Virus record (IMG/VR): IMGVR_UViG_3300032268_000599
Coordinates: 6,363 to 70,362 of that record
Direction: 5' to 3' (one strand)
Length of the DNA: 64,000 bases
Origin: a virus
The translations under genes and the position numbers were made by a program. This document shows, piece by piece, positions 5,219 to 58,794 of this stretch (positions are counted from its first letter, which is position 1; each line of letters begins with the position of its first letter). The notes under the pieces were generated by a model. The model searched no databases. It saw only the letters and a program-made list of their open reading frames with translations, and was not told the origin of the DNA.

Positions 5219-5634
5219 TCGAGATTGTCAATCGCTTCTGGGAAGCGATTGAGTGGGATTTCCAGCACCTTCTCGGTGTTGACGCTTATGACTATTTCAG
5301 GGAATTGCGTCCTTGGAGCCAGTTTCTGCGATTCTTTGACCGCCTCTTAAAGGTGGAGGGATCGGCTGTGCTTGACGCATACCTCAATGACCCAGATGTT
5401 GTTGATGAAATGGCCAAAAATCTTGAGTTAAATCCCAAGCGAAAGAAACCGTCGCTATTTGGCTGGACGGCGGAACTTTCCGCACTTAGAGACATTCAAG
5501 ATCAACTCATCGCCTCTCGGGGGGGCACCAAGTTCGTGCCCCGACCAGACGTTCCTGGGCATAAAGAAGGTTGGGTTCGCAAGGACACCAAGCTGAATAA
5601 AACCATCGACAGGATTATTGGACCCAAAGAATGA
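4928..5634 (+). CDS. tail assembly chaperone G-T fusion via programmed -1 frameshift at 5194-5200
   Basis: -1 frame reads FPYPERVVEIVNRFWEAIEWDFQHLLGVDAYDYFRELRPW..., continuous with the 5305-5634 ORF. Confidence 0.85.
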
Positions 5635-8600: not shown

Positions 8601-11600
8601 AAACTCGGTGCTGCCGTTGCAATCGGATCAGCACCCAATGACCTCGGGGCCGCTCAGGAGCAGCTAGACAGATCGGGTCCATACGGAGGACTGCGCGGAC
8701 TATCTCTTGCGACCGGCGCGGCCAGAAGCATTGGAAATGAATCCCTTGCCAGGAGCCAGGATGCTCGTGAGTCCGCGAATGTAATTCCGCAGCGAGGATT
8801 GAACAGCCGCGGATCCAGCACGTTTGGCAAGTTCACCCTTGGCCCGAATGGGGCGATCATCAATCCGGACGGTTCCGCCGTCGTTGAGGTCGAAACCTAT
8901 CCCGGTGAGGCGTGGATTCAGGCGCAGGCCGATAAGGGAATTTCTGTTGAGCGCAGATTCCCCAACGGCGCGGTCATCACCATCGGCCCGGAGTTCGGTC
9001 GGCAATATTTCAATAGCTACGCTCGCGGTGGCCCAGTTTGGGGGGCGGGTTCCGCAACGTCGGACAGCATCCCGGCGATGCTCTCTAATGGCGAGTTTGT
9101 TATCAACGCCAAGTCTGCCTCTCTGATCGGGCACGACCGGTTGCAACAAATGAACAGCATGAAGTTCGCCAATGGTGGACTTGTGCGCCGGTACGCTCCT
9201 GGCGGTCCGGTTTTGCCGCTTAACCCGCCACCAGATGATGGCGGTAGCGCCGATGTGGTAGACGCTATTCTTGGCGGTAACAACGGGCCTGCGAGTATTG
9301 ACCCGTTCAATCCAGGCGGGGTTTACGGCAATGTCCCGACCCCGGCAGCGCCAAGCCCACCGATTAGGACCGATCCGGTCAATTCGGCTCCGGTGGTCCG
9401 ACCCTATGTTCCACCAGCCCCGGCGATTTCACAGTTCGGCTCTATCGCCAACGGGATTGATTACATCCCAAGGCTTGGCGGCAGCGGAGCGCTTTCAGAC
9501 TATGGAAGCACCGCCGCTTCAGCCGTAGACAAGGCTCCGATCAATCCGGATGCCAACATTCTCGACTATCTGGTTCAGGTGTCGAACGCTTTCGGGCTGA
9601 AGCCCGGTAGCGGACCAGCTGATACCGATGCTGGAAACAAGATTGCCGATGAACTCGGCATTATGAACCACGGTCCGATCCCTGGAAACGGGATGCGACC
9701 CGCACAGCATGATGTTAACCGCGCCCTTGACATGGGAACCGCCGAGCAGTCCCAGGCGGGTGAGATCACTGAATTTGTCAAGGCGTGGATGAGCGATCCG
9801 GCCAAGGTCGCGGCGACCCGTCAACTCATCTACAGAGATCCAAAAACCGGTGAATCTTTCGGAATACATAAGGGCCGCAGGCTTTTTGGAGATGAGCTTC
9901 AGATCGTCTACGGTGACGATCTCCCCGATCACACTAAGCATGTTCATCTCGCCCTAGAGGGCGTTCCGCTATCCGCATTCAAGACAAATCTTCCCACGGC
10001 AAACATCCCCAAGCTGGGCGACATGCCAAAGGCCCCCCAAGGCCCGGTGGCGATTTCTCCGGGGCCAGCCGCCAGCACACCCAAGAGCGACGTTCAGCTA
10101 TCCACCCCTGGGGCAATAAAGGGGCCGTTTGGGGACATTCCGTTCGACCCCATCAGCATCCTCAAGCAAATCGGTGCCGCCATCCTCAACGGCATCTTCG
10201 CCTTCTTCGGGGTTGACGGCTCCGGATTTGTTAATGCGCTCTTCGGGCTGGGTGGCCAGCAGGGGCTTGGGATTGGCAAACAGGTGGAAGAAATTCCGCA
10301 GGCCGATCCGGACCTCGTTGCCGGTCTTGATGCCCAGATCGCCCAGTACGAGGCCGTGGGCACACCGGCTGCCCTGGCGTTGGCCGAAAAGATCAAGGCC
10401 GGAAGGGACGGCTACCTCAAGCAGTTCGATTCAGTCAACGCTGCCGCGAGCGCGGAGTCCGCGGCGGCTTACTTCGACAGCATCGGACAGCCTGACACCG
10501 CGGCGAAGTTGCGCGCCGGGGTGGAGGCCCTTGGCCCCAATCCGAACGAACCGAACCCGGAAAGGTTCGGCCCGGTAACCACCGTCCCCGGAACCGGGGA
10601 GAAGGGGCCGACAGCCCTGCCCCGCTCCGGTGTGTTTGTGGCACCGGCAGCCAACTACTCTGGCGGCACGCCGGAAACCCACAATGCTATCTATCGGGCG
10701 TTCAAGGAAGCCGGTTATCCGGACTCCGAATGGCCCTCCCTTGTTGAGCTTCTGAATCACGAGAACGACACATACGATCCGCTCAGGCCGACCGGTGGCC
10801 CCAACTCGGATGCTTCCGGCATCTTCCAATTCCTGTCCACGACGTGGGACGAAGTTGGAATGCAGTACAGCACGGATCCGTATGTCCAGAGCGTTGCCGG
10901 TATGCGCTACATCAAGAAGCGTTACGGAACGCCAACTGCCGCATGGAATTTCTGGCAGAACCCCAACCCTCCCGGCCCGGACCCCAACTGGCCGCATTGG
11001 TACTCGACTGGCGGAATGGTTGCGCTAGCCAGGGGCGGAATGGTTTCCGGCCCCGGAACGGGCACCTCCGACAGCATCCCTGCGATGCTTTCCAACGGCG
11101 AGTTCGTCATGCGCGCCGATGCGGTGAAGCACTGGGGTAGCGACAAGCTTCACGCGATGAACCGCTATGCCGATGGCGGCTTGGTCGGGTACGCACCCGG
11201 TGGTCTTGTGATACCAAGCGATCCCGAGCAGCAGAAGTCGATGCTGCGGGATGCTTTCAAACCGAGAAGCGACGACCCGAATATGCAGGGTGGCGGCGGC
11301 TCCTTTGACTCCGCGCCGAAGCTGTCCACCGCCCAGAGTATCGGCCAAAATATTGGAAACTGGGGCAAAGGGTTCGCCCAGGCCGCGGATCAGGCGGTTA
11401 CAGGTCTTGCTCCGCTAGTTGGCGCGGGTAACTTGCTGAACGATGCCGTTCGCCTGGAGTCGCAGTTGCTCGGCAGACCCGATCAAAGCATCAAAGACTA
11501 CAAAGCGCCCGGTGTCGCGGATTCATGGAAGGGCGTGGCTTCCGCTATCGCACCCCTAGTGGGGGCCGGAAATGTCGTTAACAACGCATTGGGGATAAAA

Positions 11601-27770: not shown

Positions 27771-28756
27771 GGATCGGCGGCGCTTACGTCGGACTGGGCC
27801 TGGGGGACTCCTCGGAGGAGATCCGAAAGATCAAGAGCTTCCTTCGTAAGAAATTCAGCTACGCCCGGAACCTGGCCGACACCCCGGACTACGACGATGC
27901 GATGTTCGCCGTCGTGTACCAGATGCAGGCCGCGTACCACAAGCAGGGGAAGCTGCACAATCCCACCGGGATCATCGACGTGGCCACCAAGGTGGTGTGC
28001 GGATACCTCCCTCCCCCCACTCCGGTTGATTCCCGACCGGTGCTGTTCACGGCGTGCGGGACGGGGGTTCCCTGGTGGGTCGGCCCCGACGCTGACGCGG
28101 CCAGGGCGGTCGAGGACCGCTACAAGTGGCAGCCCATTGGCTACCGGGCGGCACCCTTCCCCATGGCCAGGTCGGTGCGCGAGGGGCGCAGTGAACTCAT
28201 TAACCAGTTTGAGATTCACCGCAACAGGGTGCGGCAGCATGGCGCTGCCCTGATGGGCTACTCGCAGGGGGCGATTGTCACTGGCGAGTGCTGGGAGTTC
28301 GATATCAAGCCCGAGAACGGCAGGCTGCACTGGGCCAAGCCGCACATCCGCAAAGCGGTCACGTTCGGCAGCCCCATGCGAGAGGCCGGGAAGGTGTGGG
28401 CGGATCCGGGTGGAGAGCCAGCCCCCATGACTTCTCGCGGCATTGCCGACCAGCTGATGACGGACACGCCCCGGTTTTGGAGGGAGTACGCCCACCGGGG
28501 TGACCTTTACACAGATGTGGAGGGCCAAAGCGGTGAGGACAAGACGGCGATTTACAAAATCATCATGGGCGCAAGGGTTTTCGACGGCCCGGATAACATC
28601 CTGGCTCAATTCCTTGAGCTTGCCCAGGCACCCGCGGTGGAAGCCGTTGCCATGTTCCAGGCGATCATCGACGCGGGAATGTTCTTCCTTCGCGGCACCG
28701 GCCCCCACGTCAACTACAGCGTCAGTCCCGCCATCGAATATTTGCGTTCAGCCTGA
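27767..28756 (+). CDS. lysB: lysin B (cutinase-like serine esterase)
   Basis: GYSQGA nucleophile motif, FGSPMR, GDLY, PH; implies a mycolic-acid-containing host. Confidence 0.92.
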   Translation: MRIGGAYVGLGLGDSSEEIRKIKSFLRKKFSYARNLADTPDYDDAMFAVVYQMQAAYHKQGKLHNPTGIIDVATKVVCGYLPPPTPVDSRPVLFTACGTGVPWWVGPDADAARAVEDRYKWQPIGYRAAPFPMARSVREGRSELINQFEIHRNRVRQHGAALMGYSQGAIVTGECWEFDIKPENGRLHWAKPHIRKAVTFGSPMREAGKVWADPGGEPAPMTSRGIADQLMTDTPRFWREYAHRGDLYTDVEGQSGEDKTAIYKIIMGARVFDGPDNILAQFLELAQAPAVEAVAMFQAIIDAGMFFLRGTGPHVNYSVSPAIEYLRSA

Positions 28757-32301: not shown

Positions 32302-33180
32302 ATGACCGACTTCAACGTAGAACGGGACCGTTGGGGCCGACCCCTTCTGTACCCACCGCAGGGCGGCAAGGCCGTGGCATACACGAGGGCTTCCACGATG
32401 GCCAAGTGGCTTGACTCGCAGGCCGGTTTAATCAACTGGAAGGCATCCATGGCGATGATTGGCATGGCCAGGTCCAAGCCCATTCAGGCCAGGATCGCCG
32501 CCATCGTCGCCCGGACCGAAAATGATGCGTACCGGGAGAACAAGGAAGCCCTGAAGGATCTGGTGGAGAACGCCACCCAGATCGCCCAGGCGCAAGGCCG
32601 CGCAGACCTGGGGACGGCGGTCCACGAGTTCACCGAGCTTCTTGATGCCGGAACGCTGGACTGGCAGTTCGTACCAGAACAGCTGAAGGCCCCCCTTGCC
32701 CTCTACCGCGAGAAGATGCAGGCATTTGAGACGGTGGACACTGAGGTTTTCGTGGCCGTCGATGCTGAAAGCGTTGACGGCAAGGCAATTCGTGGGGCTG
32801 GAAGCCTGGACCGAATCATCCGGCACCCGGAGTTCGGCGTGTGCGTGGCCGATATCAAGACCGGCGCAGAAGAGCCAAAATACCCCCTTGGTGTCACCAC
32901 CCAGGTGGCGATCTACTCGCGTGGGAGCCGATACAGGGACGCAAGATTCTCCGGATCGCCAGCCTTTGATGACGGCGAGCCTAATGCCGATGGCACCGCC
33001 TTCCGCAAGGAGCTTCACCCCGAACTGAACAAGTCCGTGGGAATTATGATCCACCTCCCGCTGGAAAAGGCCGAATGCTCGCTGTACGCATTGGACCTCG
33101 ATCACGGCTGGGAGTCCATGCTCCTTGGGCACCGCGTTCAGGACTCCCGCCGCCCACCCAAACTGCAAAGGATTGGATGA
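32302..33180 (+). CDS. PD-(D/E)xK exonuclease (RecE/Cas4-like partner of ERF)
   Basis: RDRWGRP, GTAVH, AGSLDR, ADIKTG, QVAIY. Confidence 0.85.
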   Translation: MTDFNVERDRWGRPLLYPPQGGKAVAYTRASTMAKWLDSQAGLINWKASMAMIGMARSKPIQARIAAIVARTENDAYRENKEALKDLVENATQIAQAQGRADLGTAVHEFTELLDAGTLDWQFVPEQLKAPLALYREKMQAFETVDTEVFVAVDAESVDGKAIRGAGSLDRIIRHPEFGVCVADIKTGAEEPKYPLGVTTQVAIYSRGSRYRDARFSGSPAFDDGEPNADGTAFRKELHPELNKSVGIMIHLPLEKAECSLYALDLDHGWESMLLGHRVQDSRRPPKLQRIG

Positions 33181-33866
33181 AAGTGCCCGACGACGTGCTT
33201 GAGTCCACAGATGACGTTCACGAGTCCATCGAACTGAGCAAAGCCCTTTCGGAAGCGGAGAAGGCGGCGTTTGAGGCCCGGTTGTCGGAAATTCAGGTCG
33301 CCCGGTCGGAGGTAGAGCTTCTTGAGGCTCAGATCAATTTGGACTACCAGCTATCGGGGCTGTTCACCTTCCATCGTCGCGTGGAGCAGAAGTCGATGAA
33401 CCGCCTGTACCGATCCATGCGCCTGTGGAACAAGCACAATGCCAGCGGTAAGTGGACGATCTACCTCAACTCCGTAGGGGGCGAGGCGTGGGCGGGTATC
33501 GGAATCATTGACGAGTTGATCGCTCAGTCCATTCGCGGCGGCGGTACGCACGACATAACAATCAAGGTCCGCGGAGTGGCTGCGTCGGCAGCGGCGATGA
33601 TCCTTCAGTCCGCGGACCACCGCGTCATCGGTCGCAACTCCCAGTTGATGATTCACAAGGGTTCCTCCGGTATCCAGGGCACCGCCGACGATATCGGTGA
33701 TGAACACGCGTGGTGGGAGTCCAGCGTGGAGCGGATGGCGGAACTGTTCCTTTCCCGCACCGAAAAGATCACCAAGCGCGAGTTCATGCGGAAGATCAAC
33801 CGGCGCGACTGGTGGCTGTCCGCTGACGAGGCTGTCAGGGTTGGGTTCGCTGATGAAATCGGATGA
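33177..33866 (+). CDS. clpP: ClpP-like protease
   Basis: IYLNSVGG, GVAASAAA (Ser), LMIH (His), RDWWLSADEA..GFADEI. Confidence 0.85.
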   Translation: MKVPDDVLESTDDVHESIELSKALSEAEKAAFEARLSEIQVARSEVELLEAQINLDYQLSGLFTFHRRVEQKSMNRLYRSMRLWNKHNASGKWTIYLNSVGGEAWAGIGIIDELIAQSIRGGGTHDITIKVRGVAASAAAMILQSADHRVIGRNSQLMIHKGSSGIQGTADDIGDEHAWWESSVERMAELFLSRTEKITKREFMRKINRRDWWLSADEAVRVGFADEIG

Positions 33867-35632: not shown

Positions 35633-36100
35633 ATGGACCGCGCAGAGGCCCGGAAAAGGTACGAAGAAACCTTTAGGGACTTCATGGCGGCGTACCCGCG
35701 CCGCGTGGATCATGCTCGTGCATACGACATTTTCCTAGACCTCGTTCTGGACGAGGGGGTGGAACCATCAATGATTATTTCCAGGGCCGAGTCCTACAGC
35801 CGGAACGTAGACCCTGAAAGCATCAAGTATGTCCCCTCGCCCAGAACGTGGTTACGCGACCGCAGGTTTCACGACGAGGACATTTTCACCGACCGCAAGG
35901 TGTCCGCAAGGGACTGGTTCATCCGGGCCTACAAGGATGCTGACGCGGCGGCGGTGGAGAAGCGTTACGGGTTTGTCTACCCGGACCCCCCAATCCCAGC
36001 GGACGTGACCGACGTTCGTCACTGGTGTGAGGACGACCGAAGGAAGTGGGTTGGCCAGGTGGCCAACCATGTCCTTAACGATGCGCCACTACCGGAGTGA
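35633..36100 (+). CDS. replication initiator/loader-like protein
   Basis: FMAAYPRR...YVPSPRTWL motif; directly upstream of primase-helicase. Confidence 0.55.
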   Translation: MDRAEARKRYEETFRDFMAAYPRRVDHARAYDIFLDLVLDEGVEPSMIISRAESYSRNVDPESIKYVPSPRTWLRDRRFHDEDIFTDRKVSARDWFIRAYKDADAAAVEKRYGFVYPDPPIPADVTDVRHWCEDDRRKWVGQVANHVLNDAPLPE

Positions 36101-37583
36101 TGTGCTAGACGCATACAAGAGGTTCGTTGACGCGGCCAGAGACAAGGGCTTGACCGTTCAGGAATTGGACGGCAGGGCCATGGTTCAGTGCCCCGCCCAT
36201 AACGACGGCAGGCCCTCCCTCAGTGTCCGACCCATCGAGGGTTCGGTGCTGGCGTACTGCATGGCCGGGTGTCAAACCCTTGACGTTGTAGAGGGTTTAG
36301 GTCTGTCCATGTCGGACCTGTTCGATGACAGTTCCGGCTTTGCTTACGAGTATCCCGGTGGCCGGATCGTCAAGCGCACCCCAAGCAAAGAGTTCTTCCA
36401 GTCGGGCAACAAGTCCGACACCTCCCTGTACCGGGCCGACCGTATCGGGGATTCAAAAACCGTCTATGTCGTAGAGGGAGAGAAAGATGTTCTGGCTGTT
36501 GAATCGGTTGGAGGACAGGCTGTATCAGCGCCTAATGGGGCTTCGGCCAAACCCGAAAGATATGATTGGGAACCCCTCCGGGGAAAGACGGTGCGGATTG
36601 TCGCAGACCGGGACGCAGCTGGCGCGAAACGTGCGAAGGAAGTCTCACTACACCTTGAGGGAATTGCAGAAAGCGTTTGTGTCGTTGACCCAGCGGTAGG
36701 CAAGGATGCTGCGGATCATATCGCTGCCGGGTACGGGCTTGAGGATCTTCGGTATCGGTCGCCACCGGATGTAATCACCATGTCTCAGGCGTTCGATTCC
36801 TGGCTTGCGTGGCGCGACAGCGAGAAATCCGAACCCATCCCCACACCCTGGCAGTCCCTCAATAAGGGGCTTGCCGGTGGACTGCATCCGGGTCGTCTGT
36901 ATGTGGTGGCCGCGCGCACCGGGCAGGGAAAGAGCGTCGCCGGTCAGAACATGGTGTCCTACGCCGTGTCCCAGGGCCACCCCTCGCTGGTCGTCAGTGT
37001 TGAGATGCCGGTCGTGGAGGTCGTGTCCAGAATCTTGGCGGCGCAGGCCGGGATCGACTACAGCGTTATCACCAAGCGGGAGTTTGGTGATTCCCTCACC
37101 GCGGTTGATGAATACATTCAGGGCCACCGGTCCATGCCGATGTATCTGTGCGACAACCCGACCGTCACGGTGGAGCAGATCGCCCAGAAGTGCAGGACGC
37201 TCAAGGAAACCACCGGCCTGTCAATGCTGTTCCTTGACTACGCGCAGCTGGTGTCGCCGTCTGACCGCAGAGTGTCCCGCCAGGAGCAGGTAGCCCACAT
37301 CGTCAGGGCCACGAAGCTGATCGCCATGGAGTTGGAGATCGCCGTCGTTCTGGCTGCCCAGCTAAATCGCAATGCCGACTCTGAGGTCGATGGCCGCACC
37401 CCGAAGGTGTCGGATCTGCGGGAGTCCGGTGAGCTTGAGCAATCCGCTGACGTGATTCTCTTGCTGCATCAGGAGCAGAATTCGCCGTCGATCATCGTTA
37501 ACATCGCAAAGAATCGCACCGGCCCACCCAAGTCCATTTCTCTTATTCGCCGCTTCGATCAGGCCAGGTTAGATCCGGTATGA
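36081..37583 (+). CDS. DNA primase-helicase (Zn finger + TOPRIM + DnaB)
   Basis: CPAHND..CMAGC; VVEGEKD, ADRDAAG; AARTGQGKS, DYAQL, AQLNR, DLRESGELEQSAD. Confidence 0.93.
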   Translation: MRHYRSDVLDAYKRFVDAARDKGLTVQELDGRAMVQCPAHNDGRPSLSVRPIEGSVLAYCMAGCQTLDVVEGLGLSMSDLFDDSSGFAYEYPGGRIVKRTPSKEFFQSGNKSDTSLYRADRIGDSKTVYVVEGEKDVLAVESVGGQAVSAPNGASAKPERYDWEPLRGKTVRIVADRDAAGAKRAKEVSLHLEGIAESVCVVDPAVGKDAADHIAAGYGLEDLRYRSPPDVITMSQAFDSWLAWRDSEKSEPIPTPWQSLNKGLAGGLHPGRLYVVAARTGQGKSVAGQNMVSYAVSQGHPSLVVSVEMPVVEVVSRILAAQAGIDYSVITKREFGDSLTAVDEYIQGHRSMPMYLCDNPTVTVEQIAQKCRTLKETTGLSMLFLDYAQLVSPSDRRVSRQEQVAHIVRATKLIAMELEIAVVLAAQLNRNADSEVDGRTPKVSDLRESGELEQSADVILLLHQEQNSPSIIVNIAKNRTGPPKSISLIRRFDQARLDPV

Positions 37584-46590: not shown

Positions 46591-48936
46591 ATGGAGTATA
46601 TGGACGGCTTCACAGAGATGGGGGCCATGTCCCTCAACATCGTGGAAGCGGACAGGGTAATCATTGGGGTCCTTGAGGACTCTCCGGACCGGGTGGCATT
46701 GGCGCTGGGCAATGATGCGGCGGCACGGTACTACCTGATGCAGCTGCCCCCCGCTCGCGCGCGGCAGCTAGCAGCTTCCCTTCTCAATAAATCTGATTCG
46801 ATTGAGGGGGTCAGGTAATGGCCGGTCGCCGCGGCAGCAGCGAGGACATGCTGCTACAGCAGATCCCGCTCCCCGCAAAGCCGACCGACGAGCAGGTCCA
46901 TCACGCACGCCTGGTGGTGTGTTCCAACGTCGATGACGCTGCCGAAGCGGAGACATTGCTGGCCATGTTAGGGCTGCTGTGATGGGCGCTTATATCAACT
47001 ACGACAAAGAGCCTCTTGAGATTTGGGAGGAACCGTCTTACTCCGTCTATGACCCTTGGCAGGCTCAGGTGTTGGGAACATTCCCCAGCCGCGAGGAAGC
47101 GGAACTCTTTATGAAGGCCGTCCATAAGAGGGCGAAGAAGCGGTGAACGGGGTGTATCAGGCTTACGGAGATATCCGCAAGATCGCCTTGGAGCTTGCCA
47201 TTGAGTCGGCCTCTCTTTTCAGTGCCGATGCCCTCACTACCGATGCGGTGGTCGCCAGGGCTGAGTCATATTTCCTGTTCCTGATGGAGGACTCGTGAAC
47301 GACGATTTGGAAAATCCCCTCCTGAAAGTTGAGGGCACTAACTTTTCGTCCCGCCTCAAACTGGCGGTCTACTGGGTTCTGTGGGCCGTGGTCATGGCAG
47401 CCATTATCGGCTCATCGGTGGGGGCGATCCTCTGGATGTTGATGGTGTATGGGGAGCATAACTTCCGGTGAGTAGCTACGAGAAGTGCCAGATTTACCGC
47501 AGCACCGAATGGGTGATCTGGGATCCCAACAAGAAGATGCTGCATTTGTTCGATGACGGCCAGGGGGCCTTGAAGTTTTTCAACGAAGGTATGCCGGTCA
47601 CCGGCAAAGACGGGTGCTACGAAGGGACGGTAGGCGATGCGTAAATTTACTCCCGACGACGCGACGGCACTGATGGTGCTGAGTTTGTCGTTGCTCTCTG
47701 TGCTGATTTTTGTGCTGTGCGCGGTGGCGTACCTCTAATGGGGTTCAGCACGCTTGAGGCTCAGATCGCCGCGCATCAGTCATGGGCGAAAACGCCGGAT
47801 CGTTCCGCGCGTACTGCGCCTGCACGCAGGGCGATGTTGGCGCGTTTTGAGAAATTGGTAGATCCCGATGGGGTGATGCCGGAAGCTGCACGGCTGGAAA
47901 TGGCGGAATCCGCCCGGAAAGCCCACTACCGGAAAATGGCGTTGAAATCGGCCAGGGTGAGGGCGAGATGAAAGTTCATGGTTTCTATTGGCGTGACACG
48001 ATTTTGCCGAATACGGCGGTGAATGTGATAACGGTGGATGCCGACACCAAAGAGCAGGCCATGGAGACGGCTCAGATGTTATTGAGGAATGGGTGCGGTG
48101 CCGTCGAGGTGGACTGGTCGTGATCGCCATGTCCGAATTCATTGTCCGCTTGAGAATACTTCTCACCGGGCGTACCGAATGGACCGATTCCAATACCGGG
48201 GAAATTGAGGTCTGTTACGAGGATTGGGACACCAGTTGGGCGATTGCCGGTATTCATTCCCATAATTGGTGGTGGGTGCGCAAATACGGGCAATTGGACT
48301 GCGGATGCACCATCAACCCGATCACTCGCCGCCGCGTGCTGACGCTGTGGGGGTGTCATACGCATTGCGACAAGGACGACTGGTTGGACGACGAAGTGCG
48401 TGATTGGGAGCAATGGGGATGAGCGAGGTAGTGCCGGTGGATTGGGATACGACCGGGAATCCGGTGAAATGGCTGGCTTTTTCCCAAACCCATGAGGAGA
48501 ATGAGACGTGCGCTCAGGCGTGCGTGATTCACAATCGCACTGACCACCATATGAGGTACTGGCCGCTGAATTGGCGTGGTGATCGAGGAATTTTTGAGCG
48601 TATCTGCGATTGCGGTATCGGCCATCCCGATCCGGACCAGGGGCCGTATTGGAGTTACAGCGGACAGGATTGGCAGTGGGTTCATGGCTGCTGCGGGTGT
48701 TGCGGTAATCCGGTTCCGGCTTTCAAGCCGCGCACAGCGGAAAAGTTGGGTCTGACCGGGGATGGACAATGACGCTGCACGATGCGATCACGTTCGCTAT
48801 CCGCGACAACTTTTCGCCCCGGATGTGGGCCGATGCCGACGATATGGCCGCTCTTGTTATCCGTACCGTCGCGCAGTACCGCAAGTCGGTCAGTGAGGAC
48901 GAGTTCCTTGACGAAATTCTGGCCGCGGAGGACTAG
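46591..48936 (+). CDS. array of 12 small translationally coupled ORFs (46591-46818, 46818-46982, 46982-47146, 47143-47298, 47295-47471, 47468-47644, 47637-47738, 47738-47971, 47968-48123, 48120-48422, 48419-48772, 48769-48936)
   Basis: Continuous stop/start overlaps (ATGA, GTGA, TAATG, TGATG); two ORFs have TM helices. Confidence 0.65.
47738..47971 (+). CDS. conserved actinobacterial prophage protein
   Basis: IAAHQSWAKTPDRSARTAPAR..FEKLVDPDG..ARKAHY motif. Confidence 0.75.
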   Translation: MGFSTLEAQIAAHQSWAKTPDRSARTAPARRAMLARFEKLVDPDGVMPEAARLEMAESARKAHYRKMALKSARVRAR

Positions 48937-49838
48937 AAGCCCAGGTTTAAGCCCTTGGCTTCATCGAGTGCGCGTTCGGCGGCAGAGGCCCCGGTGTACC
49001 GGTCGATCATGGCCCTGGAACTCCACCCGGCGATAGCCATTAAACCGCCCTCAGAGCCACCGTGCAGCAGCCAGCGGGTCGCCGCGGTGTGCCGGGTGCG
49101 GTGCGGGTGAAATCCCTTCACACCGGCAGACTCAGCGCGAGCTTTCAGCGTCGATACCAGGGTGTGATATTGCATGGGGGTGCCCCAGGCGGTGATCCAA
49201 AACTTGTCGTTACCGGGCTTTACCGCCCTGCGGCGTGCCCGAATGTAACGGTCTACCGCAATGGCCGTGGCCGCGGAGAACGGCACCATCCGGCCCTTGC
49301 CACCCTTGCCCTTGATGATGATGGCTTTCATGGCAGGCAGGTCGAGGTCGTCTATCCGCATTCCCACCAATTCCGCACTGCGCGTTGCTGTCTCAAACAT
49401 GAACCGCAGGATCGCCTCGTCGCGTATGTCGATGAATTTGGAGGACTTGCTGACCCCGGCACGCTTGCACGCTTTCAGCATGGCGTTGACCTGATCGTCC
49501 GATAGTGACGGCACCACCTTGTCGTTCTTGCGCGGTGGCCCCATCCCCAGGAACGGGTCGGCGGTCGTTTCGCCTTCCTCGCGCAGCCACTTGACGAAGG
49601 ATTTCAGCGCATAGTGGCGCAGCCGTGCGGTATTGGGTTCGGTGCCTGCCGCTAGGGTGTCGGCATGAAACTTCTGGATGCTCAGTTTCAGCAGCGGTTC
49701 GGTGGTGCCGGTGGCCTCGCACCATTGCAGGTAGCAGATCACCGACCGGGTGTAGCTGCCCAGGGTTTGGGGCGACTTGTTCAGCGCCGCCAGGGATATC
49801 CGCCACGATTCGACCAGTTCCAGCAAATCTTTGACCAT
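48933..49838 (-). CDS. int: tyrosine integrase/recombinase
   Basis: RDEAIL..TATRSAEL (R), KGKGGKGR (K), HPHRTRH (HxxR), AGW, DRY (Y). Confidence 0.92.
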   Translation of the reverse strand: MVKDLLELVESWRISLAALNKSPQTLGSYTRSVICYLQWCEATGTTEPLLKLSIQKFHADTLAAGTEPNTARLRHYALKSFVKWLREEGETTADPFLGMGPPRKNDKVVPSLSDDQVNAMLKACKRAGVSKSSKFIDIRDEAILRFMFETATRSAELVGMRIDDLDLPAMKAIIIKGKGGKGRMVPFSAATAIAVDRYIRARRRAVKPGNDKFWITAWGTPMQYHTLVSTLKARAESAGVKGFHPHRTRHTAATRWLLHGGSEGGLMAIAGWSSRAMIDRYTGASAAERALDEAKGLNLGF

Positions 49839-49896
49839 GGTCTTATCTTGACATATAGCTCTGTGCCCGGTGTGCGCGACCCGAAAAAAGAACAAA

Positions 49897-49927
49897 CCCC
49901 CTGGTGCGAGGGGTGACACCAGGGGGC
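49897..49927. terminator. hairpin upstream of integrase (terminator for leftward transcripts)
   Basis: ccccctggtg...caccaggggg, with a U-rich tail on the - strand. Confidence 0.6.
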
Positions 49928-50042
49928 TTGAAACTCTTGAAAACACGTTCTTAAACTTGAGTTAGCTCTGTCCGTTGGGCTGTTTTACCTGCACATACAT
50001 TAGCGTTGTGCGGGGTATTATTCTGAGGTTTGCAACCCGCTA

Positions 50043-50300: not shown

Positions 50301-51160
50301 GCGGTGTCCCTTCCCAACGTATAGTCGCTCTCGACCACCCCAGACTCGATGGAGCCGCGGATGTTCCAGCCCCACCAGTATGTGCCGACGTGACGACCCA
50401 TGAGTGGTGCATCAGCCGTGTAGGTCTTGAAGTGGCCCCGCACACGGTGGACTGCCGAAGCCCGGTGGTGCGTGCCCGATCCGGTTCCCACCCGCTCACT
50501 TCCGCCACCCGGCAGGATGATGGTCGAGTAGCGGATTTCCTTGGCCGGGATTCCGCGCCGCTTATCCGTTCCGCTCCGTGCCTGCCTGATTCGGCCCCCA
50601 TCCCACAACTTCACGTTGCGGCAGTTGATGAGGCCCAAGGCCGTCAGACAAGCCCTTGCTAGGGCGGCAACGATTGGCGTGAACTGCTGAATGCTTTCTA
50701 AGCTCCAACCAAGATCGTCAGACCAGTAAACGAAAGCCTCAACGGAATTCTTCCCATTATCCACAGCAGCTTTCCAATTACCATTATCGGTATTCTTGCC
50801 GTAAACTAGGAATCCATTCTCATCAATTTTGTATTCCAACTCAATTACGTCGTTCATTGCCCCATCGTTGTCAAAAAGAAAATATGCCTTCATGTAGATG
50901 GAGCGATGGTCGTCGCTTTCTGTGATGAGAAATCCAACCTTGCTGGGGAAGTCCCCATCACCCTTCTTTACCAGCATGGGTTCTCGATATTCCATGAATA
51001 CCGTTGGATACGGCAATCTAACCGGTCCGACCTTACTGAAGTCGATGCCAATGTTTCTTGGCATCAAATCCCGCGCAACCTGGATATCGAACAGTACGGT
51101 GTCGTCGGGAATCATCTTGTTCTTGAGTGCCGCTTTTGCGAGCGGCATCCTATCGCTCAT
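50297..51160 (-). CDS. conserved phage hypothetical protein
   Basis: LPYPTVFMEY N-terminus; C-terminal HRVRGHFKTY...GTYWW. Confidence 0.7.
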   Translation of the reverse strand: MSDRMPLAKAALKNKMIPDDTVLFDIQVARDLMPRNIGIDFSKVGPVRLPYPTVFMEYREPMLVKKGDGDFPSKVGFLITESDDHRSIYMKAYFLFDNDGAMNDVIELEYKIDENGFLVYGKNTDNGNWKAAVDNGKNSVEAFVYWSDDLGWSLESIQQFTPIVAALARACLTALGLINCRNVKLWDGGRIRQARSGTDKRRGIPAKEIRYSTIILPGGGSERVGTGSGTHHRASAVHRVRGHFKTYTADAPLMGRHVGTYWWGWNIRGSIESGVVESDYTLGRDTA

Positions 51161-56000: not shown

Positions 56001-57821
56001 GCTTCACGCTGCGGTCTTTAACTTGACCTCGCCTTCGGTTTCAATCCACACCTTGGCCCCGCATGAAAGCGGGTTGTCGGGGCGGTACACGATCTTTGCA
56101 ACGACATTGCCGTCAACAACAATTTCTGCCTCAGACGCATAATCATTGGACTTGTACGTCTTGACAGTCAAAACATCCTGTTCACCGGCACGAATCTTGT
56201 GCTGGTTAACATGAACAATGGTTTTCAAGCCATTCCTTTCACAGTATTGATATCCTCTTAATGTTTCCGGTTTTCACAACCATCGGAACGCAATAGTCTT
56301 GATCTTTCTCAGACCAAACCATCAGATTGGTTACATCGTCGCTACCGGCACCGTCCCACCGGGCTATAAGAATTGTTCTACTCGTTCCAAAATCTGACGC
56401 TACCCAGATACGAGCGCACCATCCGGTGATAATTGAGTGCAGGGTGTCGTAGCTGCAATCTTTTCCCCATTCAATGTTGGGGATGCTTTCGTAGTCTTCC
56501 ACTTCTAGTAGCCGACCTCACTGAGTAATGCTTCCGCTTTACCCATCATGTAAAGCAATGCCTGGTATTCATCCGTACTGTTTCCGCATCATGCGCTGCA
56601 ATCACTTCGCATCGGTGATGGTGTAGTGTTGTTTTATTTCGTCTTCGCATTCACCATCGCAGTATGCGCTTTCAAACACGTTTACGATTTCTTCGTTAAC
56701 ATCGACGCAGGCATCGAAGTAAACTTTGGTGCTTCCGCACCAGTCACACGTTGCAATTTTGGTCAAACCACTATCTCCATGCCTTCCGGATCAGTCGCCC
56801 GGTCGTCATCCCACTCTGCTTTCCACGTCCACATATCGACACCAGCACGGTGCAAACCCTTGTGGTCTATTTGGCGGGTGCAAATCCAGCGGCCACATGG
56901 CGACTCTGAATCGCAGTCGCCCCATTTCCAGTCGATTGGCGGGAGATGCTGCTCGCCGGATTTATCTTGTTTAACTTCGGTGTTATACATCGGTGCGGTA
57001 AATCATCGGTTCGACATAAGCCCGAACATGATCGCTGTCGCCTGGAAGAAAACAGGAGACAAGCTCGACAAGGGCACGGTTGTACTCCGGATTGGAGTTG
57101 TCCGGTGCCGCCAGCATTTGAGCTTCTTTAATCAGGTCTTTTATCAGTGGCATACTTTCCTCTCTTTCTCGTAAAGCCTTGATGGGCTTTGGGAGATTCA
57201 ACGGGCGCATGGGCTTGGGGTTCCCGCCCCCAGCTAGTGGTTTCCCAAATCTGGTTTCCTACTGGCCAGCTTCTGCGGGGATTCCCGCTGAATCTTCCGA
57301 AACCCATCAGGTTTCGGCTCGCTCTCCACAAGTGTTAAAACATAGAATCGTCAATGGCCTCGTCAATTAACGCTTTACGAGCCATTTGACGGGCGTACTT
57401 GTCCTGATGAAGCCTGTTCATCAGCGACATGGTTGCACCGACCAATTCGTCGGAGTTCTTCCGCGAAAGGCGTTCGGAGCGAAGCTTTCCGATGGCCCGT
57501 TCGCACCGGTACATCAGGTCGTCAAGCTCGTCGTCAGTTAATCTCATTGCACCGGTCAATCATGGTTCTATCAACGGACGCGTCAGGCGATCCTTCGGGG
57601 GTCAACTCGTCAATAATGCTAGACGAGAAACGAACACCGGCCAGAAGCTCACTGAGCATTGGTTCACGGCCAATCGACAGACGAAACTGCTCCCGAATTT
57701 CTTCGATAGCGAGATCCATAGTGTCGGCGGGACCGTCACCCCACAGGTGTTCGGTGTCCTCAAATTCAGGCGACAACCCGGTAATCGAAGCCGTTACCGG
57801 GTGTGCTTTCCACCATCCCAT
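53026..57821 (-). CDS. array of about 20 small hypothetical genes (e.g. 53026-53184, 53178-53450, 53476-53703, 53704-53901, 53939-54223, 54220-54420, 54408-54587, 54836-55033, 55030-55497, 55498-55683, 55673-55921, 56004-56228, 56239-56502, 56602-56766, 56763-56990, 56983-57153, 57335-57559, 57534-57821)
   Basis: Co-oriented, abutting or overlapping ORFs typical of a phage early arm; no recognisable catalytic motifs. Confidence 0.6.
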
Positions 57822-57842
57822 TTTCTCTCCTTCTCTTCTTTT

Positions 57843-58268
57843 CTACAGCCCTATGCTGTCGAAAAAGTCGTCATCGCAACCCGAAAGGGCTTTCCGCAGT
57901 TCTTCCGAATGGAAGTTTTCCAAATCGTCCTGCCGGGGCACAAAGAATGTGCCGTGACCATCCTGGCAGCGAACGCCTGCGTGCGAGCCGTAGCGCATGT
58001 GACACTTCTTGCAAATCACGTCATGGTGGACAAGATTGCTCAAGTCACCAGTAGCCAAAATTGCAATGTCCTTCGGCTCATAAAAACGGCTGTCCCGCTT
58101 GCCCGAAGGAAGGATGAAGCAAATCTTGGGACCGCAATCGGGAAGAACCCTGTCGCAGACCAGGGCACCCAATGCCTCACCAGCCACACACATATTGCTA
58201 CGCGTGGCCTGGTTACCCCAGATGAATACATCACCGGGCTTAAGCTCAGAAATCAGTTTTGCGCGCAT
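57843..58268 (-). CDS. hypothetical protein
   Basis: GGGAGG RBS; CKKC..H..C motif. Confidence 0.6.
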   Translation of the reverse strand: MRAKLISELKPGDVFIWGNQATRSNMCVAGEALGALVCDRVLPDCGPKICFILPSGKRDSRFYEPKDIAILATGDLSNLVHHDVICKKCHMRYGSHAGVRCQDGHGTFFVPRQDDLENFHSEELRKALSGCDDDFFDSIGL

Positions 58269-58434
58269 TTCAATCCTCCCTTTTCTCGTTTTTCCGGTCA
58301 GCCGGTCAGTTGACCGGCCTTCCCTCTTTTCTCGTGAAATCGAAAGCAGGGAGTATTCCGGGCACAAGCCAGAGTTTGGTTACTCTGCCCCTTTTAACCA
58401 TGCTTCCATCCAGTGCATGGCACTTTCGACTTCG

Positions 58435-58513
58435 TGGAGCCGTGGGGAATCGAACCCCAGTCCAAACCATTCCGACTTGCGGGTTTAAGGTTTGTCGATA
58501 CCATTCCGGCCCC
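58435..58513 (-). ncRNA. tmRNA tRNA-like domain only (mini-tmRNA, Ala identity, no tag ORF)
   Basis: GGGGCCG GAAUGGUAUCGAC AAACC-20nt-GGUUU GGAC UGGGG UUCGAUU CCCCA CGGCUCC A; G3-U70 pair. Confidence 0.8.
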
Positions 58514-58538
58514 TCGACTTTAGGACAATTTGCCCTCG

Positions 58539-58582
58539 CGACTCGCGCCAGAATCGAACTAGCGATATCACCATGCGAGCCG
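58539..58582 (-). ncRNA. 44-nt tRNA-elbow-like element
   Basis: CGGCUCGC AUGGUGAUAUC GCUAG UUCGAUU CUGGC GCGAGUCG. Confidence 0.55.
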
Positions 58583-58627
58583 ACCCGCAGAACGCGGGTA
58601 ATAGCTGTCTCCCTTACCTGGGGAGAC

Positions 58628-58696
58628 TTAGCTAGAGAGTGCCAAGCCTAAAACTAGCGCAAGGCCAAACATTAACATCCAAGCAACTGTCTCCAC
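58628..58696 (-). CDS. 22-aa hydrophobic peptide
   Basis: AAGAGG RBS, GTG start; METVAWMLMFGLALVLGLALSS. Confidence 0.5.
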   Translation of the reverse strand: METVAWMLMFGLALVLGLALSS

Positions 58697-58794
58697 TTGT
58701 CGTACCTCTTTCTTTTTAGTGCTGACGCACTAGGACCGCCACGGGGGGAAACAGGAGGAGGGAAAACCCCCATGGCGGTCCTGCTACGCCAGAT

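What the first reader, a model, noticed from the sequence alone, without database searches (positions are those of the whole stretch)
58432..58513. Phage-encoded mini-tmRNA: tRNA-like domain with no mRNA/tag domain
Seen: the - strand reads GGGGCCG-GAAUGGUAUCGAC-AAACC-(20 nt with a GCAA loop)-GGUUU-GGAC-UGGGG-UUCGAUU-CCCCA-CGGCUCC-A. It has a 7-bp acceptor stem with G3-U70 and discriminator A, a stemless D loop ending UCGAC, a helix-2a equivalent, GGAC, and a perfect T arm. CGA follows where CCA would be. Known: these are the hallmarks of the tmRNA tRNA-like domain (AlaRS identity, SmpB-binding elbow), but normal tmRNA has roughly 250-300 nt of pseudoknots and a tag ORF inside helix 2. Here that is a 20-nt hairpin. 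Inference: either an SmpB/EF-Tu decoy that blocks host trans-translation, or an alanylated RNA that acts on stalled ribosomes without adding a degradation tag, possibly countering mRNA- or tRNA-cleaving defences. Tag-less tmRNAs are known from some protist mitochondria; I do not know of one described in phages.
Basis: partly seen in the sequence, partly recalled or inferred. Interest (0 to 1): 0.92.

Follow-up and report, generated by a model that had tools for sequence, protein, structure and literature searches.

The report
Phage tag-less mini-tmRNA, already known type
A phage genome carries an 80-base gene for only the tRNA-like end of the bacterial ribosome-rescue RNA (tmRNA), without the part that encodes the degradation tag; one such phage RNA was already described, but it turns out to be one of a large family.

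Summary
Window 58432-58513 (- strand) matches Rfam tmRNA RF00023 end to end (61.7 bits, cut-off 47), with 308 model positions replaced by 16 nt. ARAGORN finds no tRNA or tmRNA in the window.

It is not a one-off.
- Two pattern scans of viral contigs gave 96 further loci.
- A covariance model built without the window scores the window at 73.5 bits.
- It finds exactly one copy in each of 98 sources, 65 of them distinct.
- G3:U70 is present in 65 of 65. Pairing is 97.0% against 69.7% in shuffles.

Mycobacteriophage DS6A is listed as "TLD only" in Hudson et al. 2014. A 2025 database paper says this form inhibits E. coli tmRNA. DS6A's RNA has the same architecture.

This is therefore a new member of a known kind. 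The most likely role is a chargeable competitor of host tmRNA that captures host SmpB and prevents tagging. Tag-less ribosome rescue is the main rival. I found no description in print of the family's breadth, its conserved inner hairpin or its frequent place in phage tRNA arrays.

The parts
58432..58513 (-). Whole TLD-only tmRNA gene as matched by Rfam. The predicted mature RNA is 58435-58513 (79 nt), with CCA added after transcription.
   Evidence: RF00023 61.7 bits, model 1-374 matched globally with 308 positions replaced by 16 nt. Family model R1 73.5 bits over 58435-58513.
58507..58513 (-). Acceptor stem, 5' strand, with G3 of the G3:U70 pair
   Evidence: 7 of 7 pairs with 58436-58442. G3:U70 in 65 of 65 distinct family members.
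58494..58506 (-). Stemless D-loop analogue ending UCGAC, the elbow region that SmpB contacts in full tmRNA
   Evidence: Aligned to the conserved tmRNA consensus at high posterior probability. UCGAC is invariant in alignment A1, but both scan patterns required it.
58489..58493 (-). Helix 2a, 5' strand (5 bp)
   Evidence: Pairs with 58464-58468. Every helix 2a position in the family shows changes on both sides, with 5-6 pair types per position.
58469..58488 (-). Inner 20 nt that replace the pseudoknots and tag ORF: an A-rich 5' side, a 3-bp CCG/CGG hairpin with a 5-nt loop (58472-58482), and a 3-nt 3' side
   Evidence: Sequence. The hairpin is conserved in the family: the outer pair is C:G in 58 of 60 scored cells. 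A purine-rich 4-mer (AAAA, AAAG, AAGA or AAGG) precedes it in 38 of 65.
58464..58468 (-). Helix 2a, 3' strand
58460..58463 (-). GGAC linker before the T arm, a tmRNA hallmark
   Evidence: Matches the Rfam consensus. The first scan pattern required it, so its constancy in the family is not independent. DS6A has GCAC here.
58443..58459 (-). T arm: 5-bp stem and 7-nt loop UUCGAUU
   Evidence: 5 of 5 pairs. Stem positions 1 and 2 covary in the family, with 5 and 4 pair types.
58435..58442 (-). Acceptor stem 3' strand (58436-58442, with U70) and discriminator A73 (58435)
58432..58434 (-). 3' trailer CGA. CCA is not encoded.
   Evidence: In the family nt 74 is C in 64 of 65, and full CCA is encoded in 13 of 65.
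58539..58581 (-). Second, smaller tRNA-like minihelix 25 nt upstream on the same strand. It has a 7-bp acceptor-like stem (G2:U71, no G3:U70), an 11-nt linker, and a perfect T arm with the same 7-nt loop. It lacks helix 2a and GGAC. Its relation to the mini-tmRNA is unknown.
   Evidence: Own script. R1 and Rfam do not score it. A variant contig in another sample carries it identically between unrelated flanks.
58368..58715 (-). Intergenic gap in a run of small - strand genes. It holds both RNA elements.
   Evidence: ORF list. The RNA is on the same strand as the flanking genes. No sigma-70-like promoter and no terminator lies next to the RNA.

Best explanation
This is a real, selected gene for a TLD-only tmRNA. 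It keeps the acceptor stem with the alanine identity pair, the SmpB-binding elbow, helix 2a and the T arm. A short conserved hairpin closes it where a normal tmRNA has its pseudoknots and tag reading frame.

Proposed mechanism:
- It is transcribed with its neighbours and processed like a tRNA.
- It receives CCA and alanine.
- It binds the host's SmpB, since the phage encodes none.
- It then competes with host tmRNA for SmpB, EF-Tu and stalled ribosomes.
- Having no resume codon or tag ORF, it lowers or blocks ssrA tagging of proteins made during infection.

Shown here: the identity, the architecture, selection on the structure, the family, and the absence of a phage SmpB or a full-length tmRNA.
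From the literature: a similar molecule inhibits tmRNA in E. coli.
Inferred: processing, charging, SmpB capture in the natural host, and the benefit to the phage.
For: Identity:
- RF00023 61.7 bits against 47.
- R1 73.5 bits, with the window left out of the model.

Selection on the structure:
- 65 distinct sequences are 97.0% paired against 69.7% in shuffles (0 of 500 shuffles reach it).
- Covariation score is 0.662 against 0.135 shuffled and 0.05-0.11 for slid partners.
- The ungapped 25-sequence alignment, not fitted to a model, gives 95.2% against 72.8% and 0.603 against 0.152.

Strain comparison: a related variant in another sample keeps 58323-58537 with 3 changes and no gaps. The neighbouring 57800-58267 has 44 changes and 12 gaps.

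Dependence on the host:
- No SmpB in the window's 70-kb contig.
- 0 of 5 phage genomes at 98-100% estimated completeness that carry minis encode SmpB.
- In all 5 the mini is the only RF00023 hit above the cut-off.

Handled like a tRNA: 12 of 60 loci have a canonical tRNA on the same strand within 160 nt, in some cases 0-5 nt away.

Literature:
[quoted passage not shown] - DS6A's RNA shares the architecture and the inner hairpin and scores 58.4 bits with R1.
Against: - There is no expression, charging or SmpB-binding data for this RNA or for any natural host.
- The inhibition experiment (Mao et al. 2009) could not be read. As summarised, it was done by expression in E. coli.
- According to Hudson et al., inhibition did not need chargeability. 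Yet G3:U70 and A73 are kept in 65 of 65, and neither scan pattern constrained U70. This suggests that charging matters in nature, which fits an active role on the ribosome better than pure titration.
- Sitting among phage tRNA genes and near RNA ligase genes looks like a module that supports translation rather than one that inhibits it.
- No promoter or terminator consensus was found next to the RNA.
Confidence: 0.5

Rival explanations
1. Tag-less ribosome rescuer. The alanine-charged mini-tmRNA, with host SmpB and EF-Tu, enters ribosomes stalled on broken mRNAs and accepts the nascent chain. The peptidyl-RNA is then released, by drop-off and peptidyl-tRNA hydrolase or by a release factor-like protein. 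Ribosomes are recycled without marking the protein for degradation. The selected function is to keep translation running, for example when host nucleases cut mRNA or tRNA, rather than to inhibit it.
For: - G3:U70 in 65 of 65 and A73 in all, with U70 not imposed by the scan patterns. C74 in 64 of 65.
- Location in phage tRNA arrays in 12 of 60 loci.
- RNA ligase genes in DS6A (RtcB-like gp76) and about 1.8 kb from the mini in Streptomyces phage pSt2308.
[quoted passage not shown] Miller and Buskirk 2014 cite Shimizu and Ueda 2006 for this (PMC3895274, passage).
- Tag-less mitochondrial tmRNAs co-occur with mitochondrion-targeted SmpB and are thought to help with incomplete mRNAs (PMC11915505, passage).
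Against: - No release step is known for a peptidyl-TLD that has no stop codon to offer.
- Himeno et al. 2014 state that forms without a tag sequence argue against the bacterial type of trans-translation (PMC3985003, passage).
- As summarised in print, the only experiment reports inhibition, not rescue.
Confidence: 0.3
2. Decoy or trigger in host defence. The RNA acts on host immune proteins that carry SmpB-like RNA-binding domains, or is sensed by them, rather than acting on the rescue pathway itself.
For: CoCoNuT type IV restriction systems carry SmpB-like OB folds that are predicted to bind tmRNA-like RNA (PMC10542128, abstract and passages). The SmpB-contacting elements of the mini-tmRNA are strongly conserved.
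Against: This is purely inferential. No such system was looked for in any host, and the host of this phage is unknown. The idea does not explain why the alanine identity pair is kept.
Confidence: 0.05
3. tRNA-like processing signal. The structure serves only as an RNase P or RNase Z cleavage site that cuts a polycistronic transcript, with no role in translation.
For: It lies inside a same-strand gene run. A second tRNA-like minihelix lies 25 nt upstream. Some family members abut tRNA genes.
Against: A generic tRNA-like fold would do that job. Instead the tmRNA-specific features are kept across phages whose loci range from 31% to 71% GC: the stemless D-loop analogue, helix 2a, the linker, G3:U70 and A73.
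Confidence: 0.05
4. Relic: an attP core copied from a host ssrA gene, a decayed full-length phage tmRNA, or an assembly artefact.
For: The phage has a tyrosine integrase (window 48933-49946). Phages often integrate into tRNA and tmRNA genes (PMC10865867, passage).
Against: - The RNA is 8.5 kb from the integrase. It carries both halves of the TLD in perfect register, whereas an attP core holds only the 3' part.
- DS6A integrates at a tRNA-Lys site, not at ssrA (PMC10865867, table passage).
- Compensatory changes across 65 distinct sequences show selection on the fold.
- An independent contig from another sample has the same short form.
- Five complete phage genomes carry only the mini form.
Confidence: 0.03

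Closest known systems
TLD-only tmRNA of mycobacteriophage DS6A (tmRNA Website entry; Mao et al. 2009; Hudson, Lau and Williams 2014; the 2025 tmRNA database paper)
   Same: - About 80 nt, phage-borne, on the same strand as its neighbours.
- The acceptor stem is identical over all 7 pairs and includes G3:U70. Discriminator A, an 11-nt spacing before TCGAC, a 5-bp helix 2a, and an A-rich stretch followed by a small CCG...CGG hairpin are shared. CCA is not encoded.
- Both match R1, the window at 73.5 bits and DS6A at 58.4 bits.
- Both phages are temperate by gene content, each with a tyrosine integrase.
   Different: - The 3-way alignment of window, DS6A and phiPsal1 has 81% mean column identity, and the differences lie mostly in the paired stems.
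- DS6A has GCAC where the window has GGAC. It falls below the Rfam cut-off (43.2 against 47), while the window passes (61.7).
- The genome contexts and the phages are unrelated: no DNA match, and DS6A is absent from the listed best protein hits.
- The window has an extra tRNA-like minihelix upstream.
Full-length bacterial and phage tmRNA (Rfam RF00023), for example the 407-nt tmRNA of Mycobacterium phage Kumao
   Same: Both ends of the molecule (the TLD) are shared. The Rfam model aligns globally at its positions 1-27 and 336-374.
   Different: The mini form has no pseudoknots, no resume codon, no tag ORF and no stop codon: 16-20 nt stand in place of about 300. Kumao's gene is 407 nt. With R1, the 3' ends of full-length tmRNAs score only 21.7-37.5 bits, against 53-95 bits for minis.
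Tag-less tmRNAs of jakobid and oomycete mitochondria, and the ~65-bp forms in Mallomonadaceae plastids
   Same: They have lost the mRNA-like domain but keep the TLD, and they depend on an SmpB encoded elsewhere (PMC11915505 passage; PMC3985003 passage).
   Different: They are organellar, vertically inherited products of genome reduction. Here the gene is on a virus that meets a host which, like bacteria in general (PMC3985003), is expected to have its own complete tmRNA, so competition is possible. No sequence comparison with those forms was made here.
Engineered TLD fragments used for SmpB co-crystals and kinetics (for example PDB 2CZJ, the two tmRNA ends joined by a UUCG loop)
   Same: The design is the same: the 5' and 3' ends of tmRNA joined by a short loop that closes helix 2a. 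Such fragments bind SmpB (PMC3985003 figure legend) and accept peptide in vitro (PMC3895274 passage).
   Different: The engineered fragments are artificial. The natural family has a conserved A-rich internal loop and a CCG/CGG hairpin rather than an arbitrary tetraloop.

Membership tests
tmRNA tRNA-like domain (Rfam RF00023) | Score at or above the curated gathering score, with both ends of the model matched | tested here: met
   61.7 bits against 47, model positions 1-374, not truncated
tmRNA tRNA-like domain (Rfam RF00023) | 7-bp acceptor stem with G3:U70 and discriminator A73 (the alanine identity set) | tested here: met
   Sequence; 7 of 7 pairs; G3:U70 in 65 of 65 family members
tmRNA tRNA-like domain (Rfam RF00023) | Stemless D-loop analogue ending UCGAC, helix 2a, GGAC linker and a T arm with a UUCGAnU loop | tested here: met
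   cmscan alignment to the consensus; R1 alignment
Complete (functional) tmRNA | mRNA-like domain with a resume codon, a tag reading frame and a stop codon | tested here: not met
   Only 20 nt lie between the helix 2a strands, and 308 model positions are absent
Complete (functional) tmRNA | Pseudoknots PK1-PK4 | tested here: not met
   There is no room for them. The inner region is a single 3-bp hairpin.
Complete (functional) tmRNA | Alanylation by AlaRS, SmpB binding and EF-Tu delivery | not testable with these tools
   The sequence determinants are present, but there is no biochemical data
Phage TLD-only tmRNA (DS6A type) | About 80 nt, with the two TLD halves joined by a short hairpin, carried on a phage genome | tested here: met
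   79-nt core. The contig is a virus record with tail, integrase and primase-helicase genes.
Phage TLD-only tmRNA (DS6A type) | Homology to the DS6A RNA | tested here: met
   Alignment A2. One model, R1, finds both, at 73.5 and 58.4 bits.
Phage TLD-only tmRNA (DS6A type) | Inhibits host trans-translation | not testable with these tools
   Known only from summaries of Mao et al. 2009. The paper itself is not held.
Canonical tRNA | Anticodon arm and D stem; detected by a tRNA finder | tested here: not met
   ARAGORN finds 0 genes in the window. Real tRNAs score below 15 bits with R1.
attP core derived from host ssrA | Holds only the 3' part of the host gene and lies next to the integrase gene | tested here: not met
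   Both halves are present. The integrase at 48933-49946 is 8.5 kb away.
Mitochondrial tag-less tmRNA (RF02544) | Match to the mitochondrial model better than to the bacterial one | tested here: inconclusive
   In the permissive scan only the best family of the clan is kept, and that was RF00023. No separate score was seen.

The most novel reading that the evidence does not exclude
TLD-only tmRNAs are not a DS6A oddity. They are a widespread class of phage RNA that ARAGORN did not call as tmRNA in any of 61 sequences searched, so surveys that rely on ARAGORN would miss them. The 65 distinct sequences found here come from loci of 31-71% GC. Their conserved alanine identity, their conserved A-rich loop and CCG/CGG hairpin, and their place among phage tRNA and RNA-ligase genes point to an active role on the ribosome. 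That role would be tag-less rescue or hijacking of trans-translation, as part of a module that keeps phage translation running when host defences cut RNA. The inner hairpin would then be a new functional element, for example one that recruits a release activity or replaces the missing mRNA-like domain in contacts with SmpB or the ribosome.
Probability: 0.25. Interest if true: 0.75.

Novelty: new member of a known kind. Interest (0 to 1): 0.45.

Why it matters
Trans-translation is the main ribosome-rescue and protein quality-control route in bacteria. A small viral RNA that captures SmpB, or that works on stalled ribosomes without adding a degradation tag, would be a compact natural tool against that route.

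The single published phage case (DS6A) can now be placed in a family of at least 65 distinct sequences with clear covariation. That gives a covariance model for annotation and several cultivable systems in which to test function: Streptomyces phages pSt2308, LuckySocke and GiJojo, and Pontimonas phage phiPsal1. The invariant alanine identity pair also gives a concrete way to tell titration apart from action on the ribosome.

For this window alone the finding is an ordinary member of that family.

Tried and rejected
- ARAGORN finds nothing in the window. It never calls the mini form a tmRNA in 60 loci. In one locus, L045, it calls an overlapping tRNA-Arg, so that member is ambiguous.
- Single-sequence folding gave a non-native minimum-energy fold and z = -1.47. 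I did not use it.
- RNAalifold on the MAFFT alignment A1 found only the acceptor and T stems, because indels shift helix 2a. I replaced it with anchored counts, an ungapped subset and a model-based alignment. The last leans towards the model's structure.
- megablast of the 600-nt region against phages gave no match.
- The single genome-contig scan used a pattern without the 5' acceptor. It mostly hit the 3' ends of ordinary tmRNAs: 115 of 120 hits have no 5' acceptor strand within 10-23 nt upstream of TCGAC. Of the 5 that passed my filter, 3 are false. Only L156 and L169 are true minis.
- blastn with the L212-type mini against phages gave no match. With the L012 type it gave only partial 3' matches.
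- The closest cultured relatives by protein, prophiFSQJ01-1 and Gordonia phage Fryberger, have no RF00023 hit at E <= 0.01. There is therefore no syntenic full-length tmRNA to compare with.
- Promoter and terminator scan: 0 promoter-like sites, and 3 overlapping terminator-like sites at 58757-58771, not next to the RNA. This is uninformative for an unknown host.
- Expression: no RNA holder is listed among the sequencing runs.
- A weak R1 hit at 50350-50373 (16.1 bits), near the integrase gene, lies inside an ORF and is a plain hairpin. I rejected it as an attP trace.
- Possible homology of the inner hairpin to a part of full-length tmRNA: the Kumao tmRNA shows nothing comparable after helix 2a. 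A shared GCA[CT]G core occurs in 28 of 65 minis against 5.2 expected. It also occurs in a palindromic motif near the 3' end of ordinary tmRNAs. This was noted and left unresolved.
- Mao et al. 2009 is not held.
- Searches behind the statement that I found no description in print of a broad phage TLD-only family.
- Complex prediction, structure prediction and the large protein searches were not used, because the feature is an RNA.

Full report
**What is there.**

The window is part of a 70,362-base virus record.

It has a 7-bp acceptor stem with G3:U70 and discriminator A. A stemless 13-nt D-loop analogue ends in UCGAC. A 5-bp helix 2a follows, then 20 inner nucleotides, GGAC, a perfect T arm, and CGA in place of CCA.

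Rfam's tmRNA model RF00023 matches it globally at 61.7 bits (gathering score 47, E 1e-21). Positions 1-27 and 336-374 of the model are aligned, and 308 model positions are replaced by 16 nt. It is the only gathering-level Rfam hit in the 64 kb.

ARAGORN reports no tRNA or tmRNA in the window. One detail needs correcting. The inner segment forms a 3-bp CCG/CGG hairpin with a 5-nt loop. It is not a closed GCAA tetraloop.

**It belongs to a family.**

blastn found a similar unannotated 82-nt element in Pontimonas phage phiPsal1 (RF00023 54.6 bits).

A motif pattern with a short variable gap found 85 stretches in IMG/VR. The window's own copy does not fit that pattern, because its D-loop spacing is 11 nt. 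A second pattern found 11 more stretches, one of them a 60,588-base IMG/VR record, the same length as the DS6A GenBank record.

In an ungapped alignment of 25 of these sequences, the proposed structure is 95.2% paired against 72.8% in shuffles. Its covariation score is 0.603, against 0.152 for shuffles and 0.07-0.13 for slid partners.

I built a covariance model, R1, from those 25 sequences, with the window left out.
- R1 scores the window at 73.5 bits. The next best hit in the window scores 16.1 bits.
- Over 98 sources (861 kb) it finds exactly one copy per source, at 53-95 bits.
- The 98 hits are 65 distinct sequences of 67-89 nt.

On the model-fitted alignment, which leans towards the model's structure:
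- 97.0% of cells pair, against 69.7% in shuffles.
- 16 of 21 pairs show changes on both sides.
- The covariation score is 0.662, against 0.135 for shuffles (0 of 500 reach it) and 0.05-0.11 for slid partners.

G3:U70 is present in 65 of 65. Neither viral pattern constrained the 3' acceptor strand, so U70 was not imposed. Nucleotide 74 is C in 64 of 65, and full CCA is encoded in only 13 of 65.

R1 separates the mini forms from other RNAs.
- Mini forms in sources added later score 62-85 bits.
- The 3' ends of ordinary tmRNAs score 21.7-37.5 bits.
- Real tRNAs score below 15 bits.

**Not an artefact or a one-off deletion.**

A contig from another sample of the same study carries a related variant. 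It keeps 58323-58537 with 3 changes and no gaps. The adjoining gene region 57800-58267 has 44 changes and 12 gaps.

Five virus genomes at 98-100% estimated completeness (73-181 kb) that carry minis have no full-length tmRNA and no SmpB gene. The window's contig has no SmpB either.

**Prior art.**

Hudson, Lau and Williams 2014 list 'Mycobacterium phage DS6A (TLD only)'. [quoted passage not shown]

The 2025 tmRNA database paper repeats this. It also reports ~65-bp forms without a coding sequence in some plastids (passages).

I located the DS6A RNA at 28478-28560 of its record. It is not annotated in that GenBank record, and it scores below the Rfam cut-off at 43.2 bits.

It has the same acceptor stem as the window, the same 11-nt spacing, a 5-bp helix 2a and the same kind of inner hairpin. 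R1 scores it at 58.4 bits.

Mao et al. 2009 itself is not held, and supplements were closed.

My searches found no description of a broad phage family of this kind. The one phage survey I read used ARAGORN (PMC9004378 passages). ARAGORN did not call any mini form a tmRNA in the window or in 60 loci.

**Context.**

The phage looks like a temperate siphovirus related to actinophages.
- It has a ReqiPepy6 Gp37-like tail protein and a primase-helicase.
- The primase-helicase is 36-38% identical to those of Mycobacterium and Gordonia phages.
- An AAA-ATPase is 34-38% identical to those of M. abscessus prophages and Gordonia phages.
- A tyrosine integrase lies at 48933-49946.
- The host is unknown.

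The RNA lies in a 348-nt gap within a run of small - strand genes of unknown function. It is 8.5 kb from the integrase.

In the family, 12 of 60 loci have canonical tRNA genes on the same strand within 160 nt, in some cases 0-5 nt away. Streptomyces phage pSt2308 carries an unannotated mini inside its tRNA array, about 1.8 kb from an RNA ligase gene. DS6A encodes an RtcB-like ligase. Locus GC ranges from 0.31 to 0.71, so the hosts are probably diverse.

**Mechanism.**

What is shown is a selected, compact TLD that keeps everything needed to be recognised by RNase P, AlaRS, SmpB and EF-Tu, and nothing that could be translated.

Engineered RNAs of the same design bind SmpB and accept peptide in vitro. 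Together with the published inhibition result, this makes competition with host tmRNA through SmpB capture the best-supported reading (0.5).

Three observations point towards an active, charged role on stalled ribosomes, that is, rescue without tagging (0.3).
- The alanine identity pair is invariant, although inhibition is said not to need charging.
- The genes often sit among phage tRNA genes.
- RNA ligase genes occur in or near some carriers.

The two readings share their first steps. They differ in the fate of the ribosome.

A role as a processing signal (0.05), a role against SmpB-like defence domains (0.05, idea drawn) and a relic or attP origin (0.03) are less likely, for the reasons given under the rivals.

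**Verdict.**

The RNA is a new member of a known kind.

Interest for this window is moderate (0.45). It would be higher if the family proves to act on ribosomes.

Noticed in passing
window 58539-58581 (-): A second tRNA-like minihelix lies 25 nt upstream of the mini-tmRNA on the same strand. It has a 7-bp acceptor-like stem (G2:U71, no G3:U70), an 11-nt linker that resembles the D-loop analogue, and a perfect T arm with the same 7-nt loop. It has no helix 2a and no GGAC. The same script run on about 100 viral loci gave only one other short hit, and that one lies inside a normal tRNA-Glu in L079. In variant contigs from other samples the 46 nt at 58537-58582 recur (0 changes in run X2, 2 in run X4), with about 160 other letters between them and the mini-tmRNA spacer and an unrelated flank beyond 58582. 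It may be a degenerate duplicate, a processing signal or a separate small RNA.
   Followed up: partly
phages: MG835450.1 5569-5650; PV588686.1 33356-33433; OR725497.1 17977-18044; PP725410.1 17025-17092: Cultured phages carry mini-tmRNAs that their records do not annotate as RNA genes: Pontimonas phiPsal1 and Streptomyces pSt2308, LuckySocke and GiJojo. In GiJojo the place lies under a 'hypothetical protein' CDS. phiPsal1 and pSt2308 were confirmed with RF00023 or R1. LuckySocke and GiJojo rest on blastn only, with 87% coverage.
   Followed up: partly
L207 (JN698994.1) 28478-28560: The published DS6A TLD-only RNA scores 43.2 bits, below the RF00023 gathering score of 47, and has GCAC instead of GGAC. 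A gathering-threshold Rfam annotation would miss it, while the window and 5 other minis pass.
   Followed up: yes
window 33075-33866 (+): A ClpP-family protease gene (PF00574, 80 bits; best PHROG match is head maturation protease) sits among non-structural genes, about 2 kb upstream of the primase-helicase gene (36027-37583) and far from the tail genes at 5-26 kb. It may simply be the prohead protease in an unusual gene order. It is worth a look, because ClpXP degrades ssrA-tagged proteins.
   Followed up: partly
window 59118-59480 (-): A 120-aa ORF has a threefold Cys-rich repeat (C-x2-C pairs with a GDSDWC motif) and matches no Pfam or PHROG family. It lies two genes upstream of the RNA.
   Followed up: no
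window 5631-16037 (+): A very long ORF of 3468 aa lies just upstream of the minor tail genes. From its position it is presumably an unusually long tape measure protein.
   Followed up: no
window 58268-58322 and 58537: In the variant contig of run X2, 55 nt are replaced by 412 other letters and about 160 letters are inserted at 58537. The intergenic region around the two RNA elements is therefore mosaic between strains.
   Followed up: no
L088-L206 (genome contigs): The 3' ends of ordinary bacterial tmRNAs from many phyla share a palindromic motif of the form CTA-nGCAnG-TAG about 40 nt before GGAC. Its GCA[CT]G core also occurs in the inner hairpin of 28 of 65 minis, against 5.2 expected from shuffles. 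Whether this reflects homology is open.
   Followed up: partly
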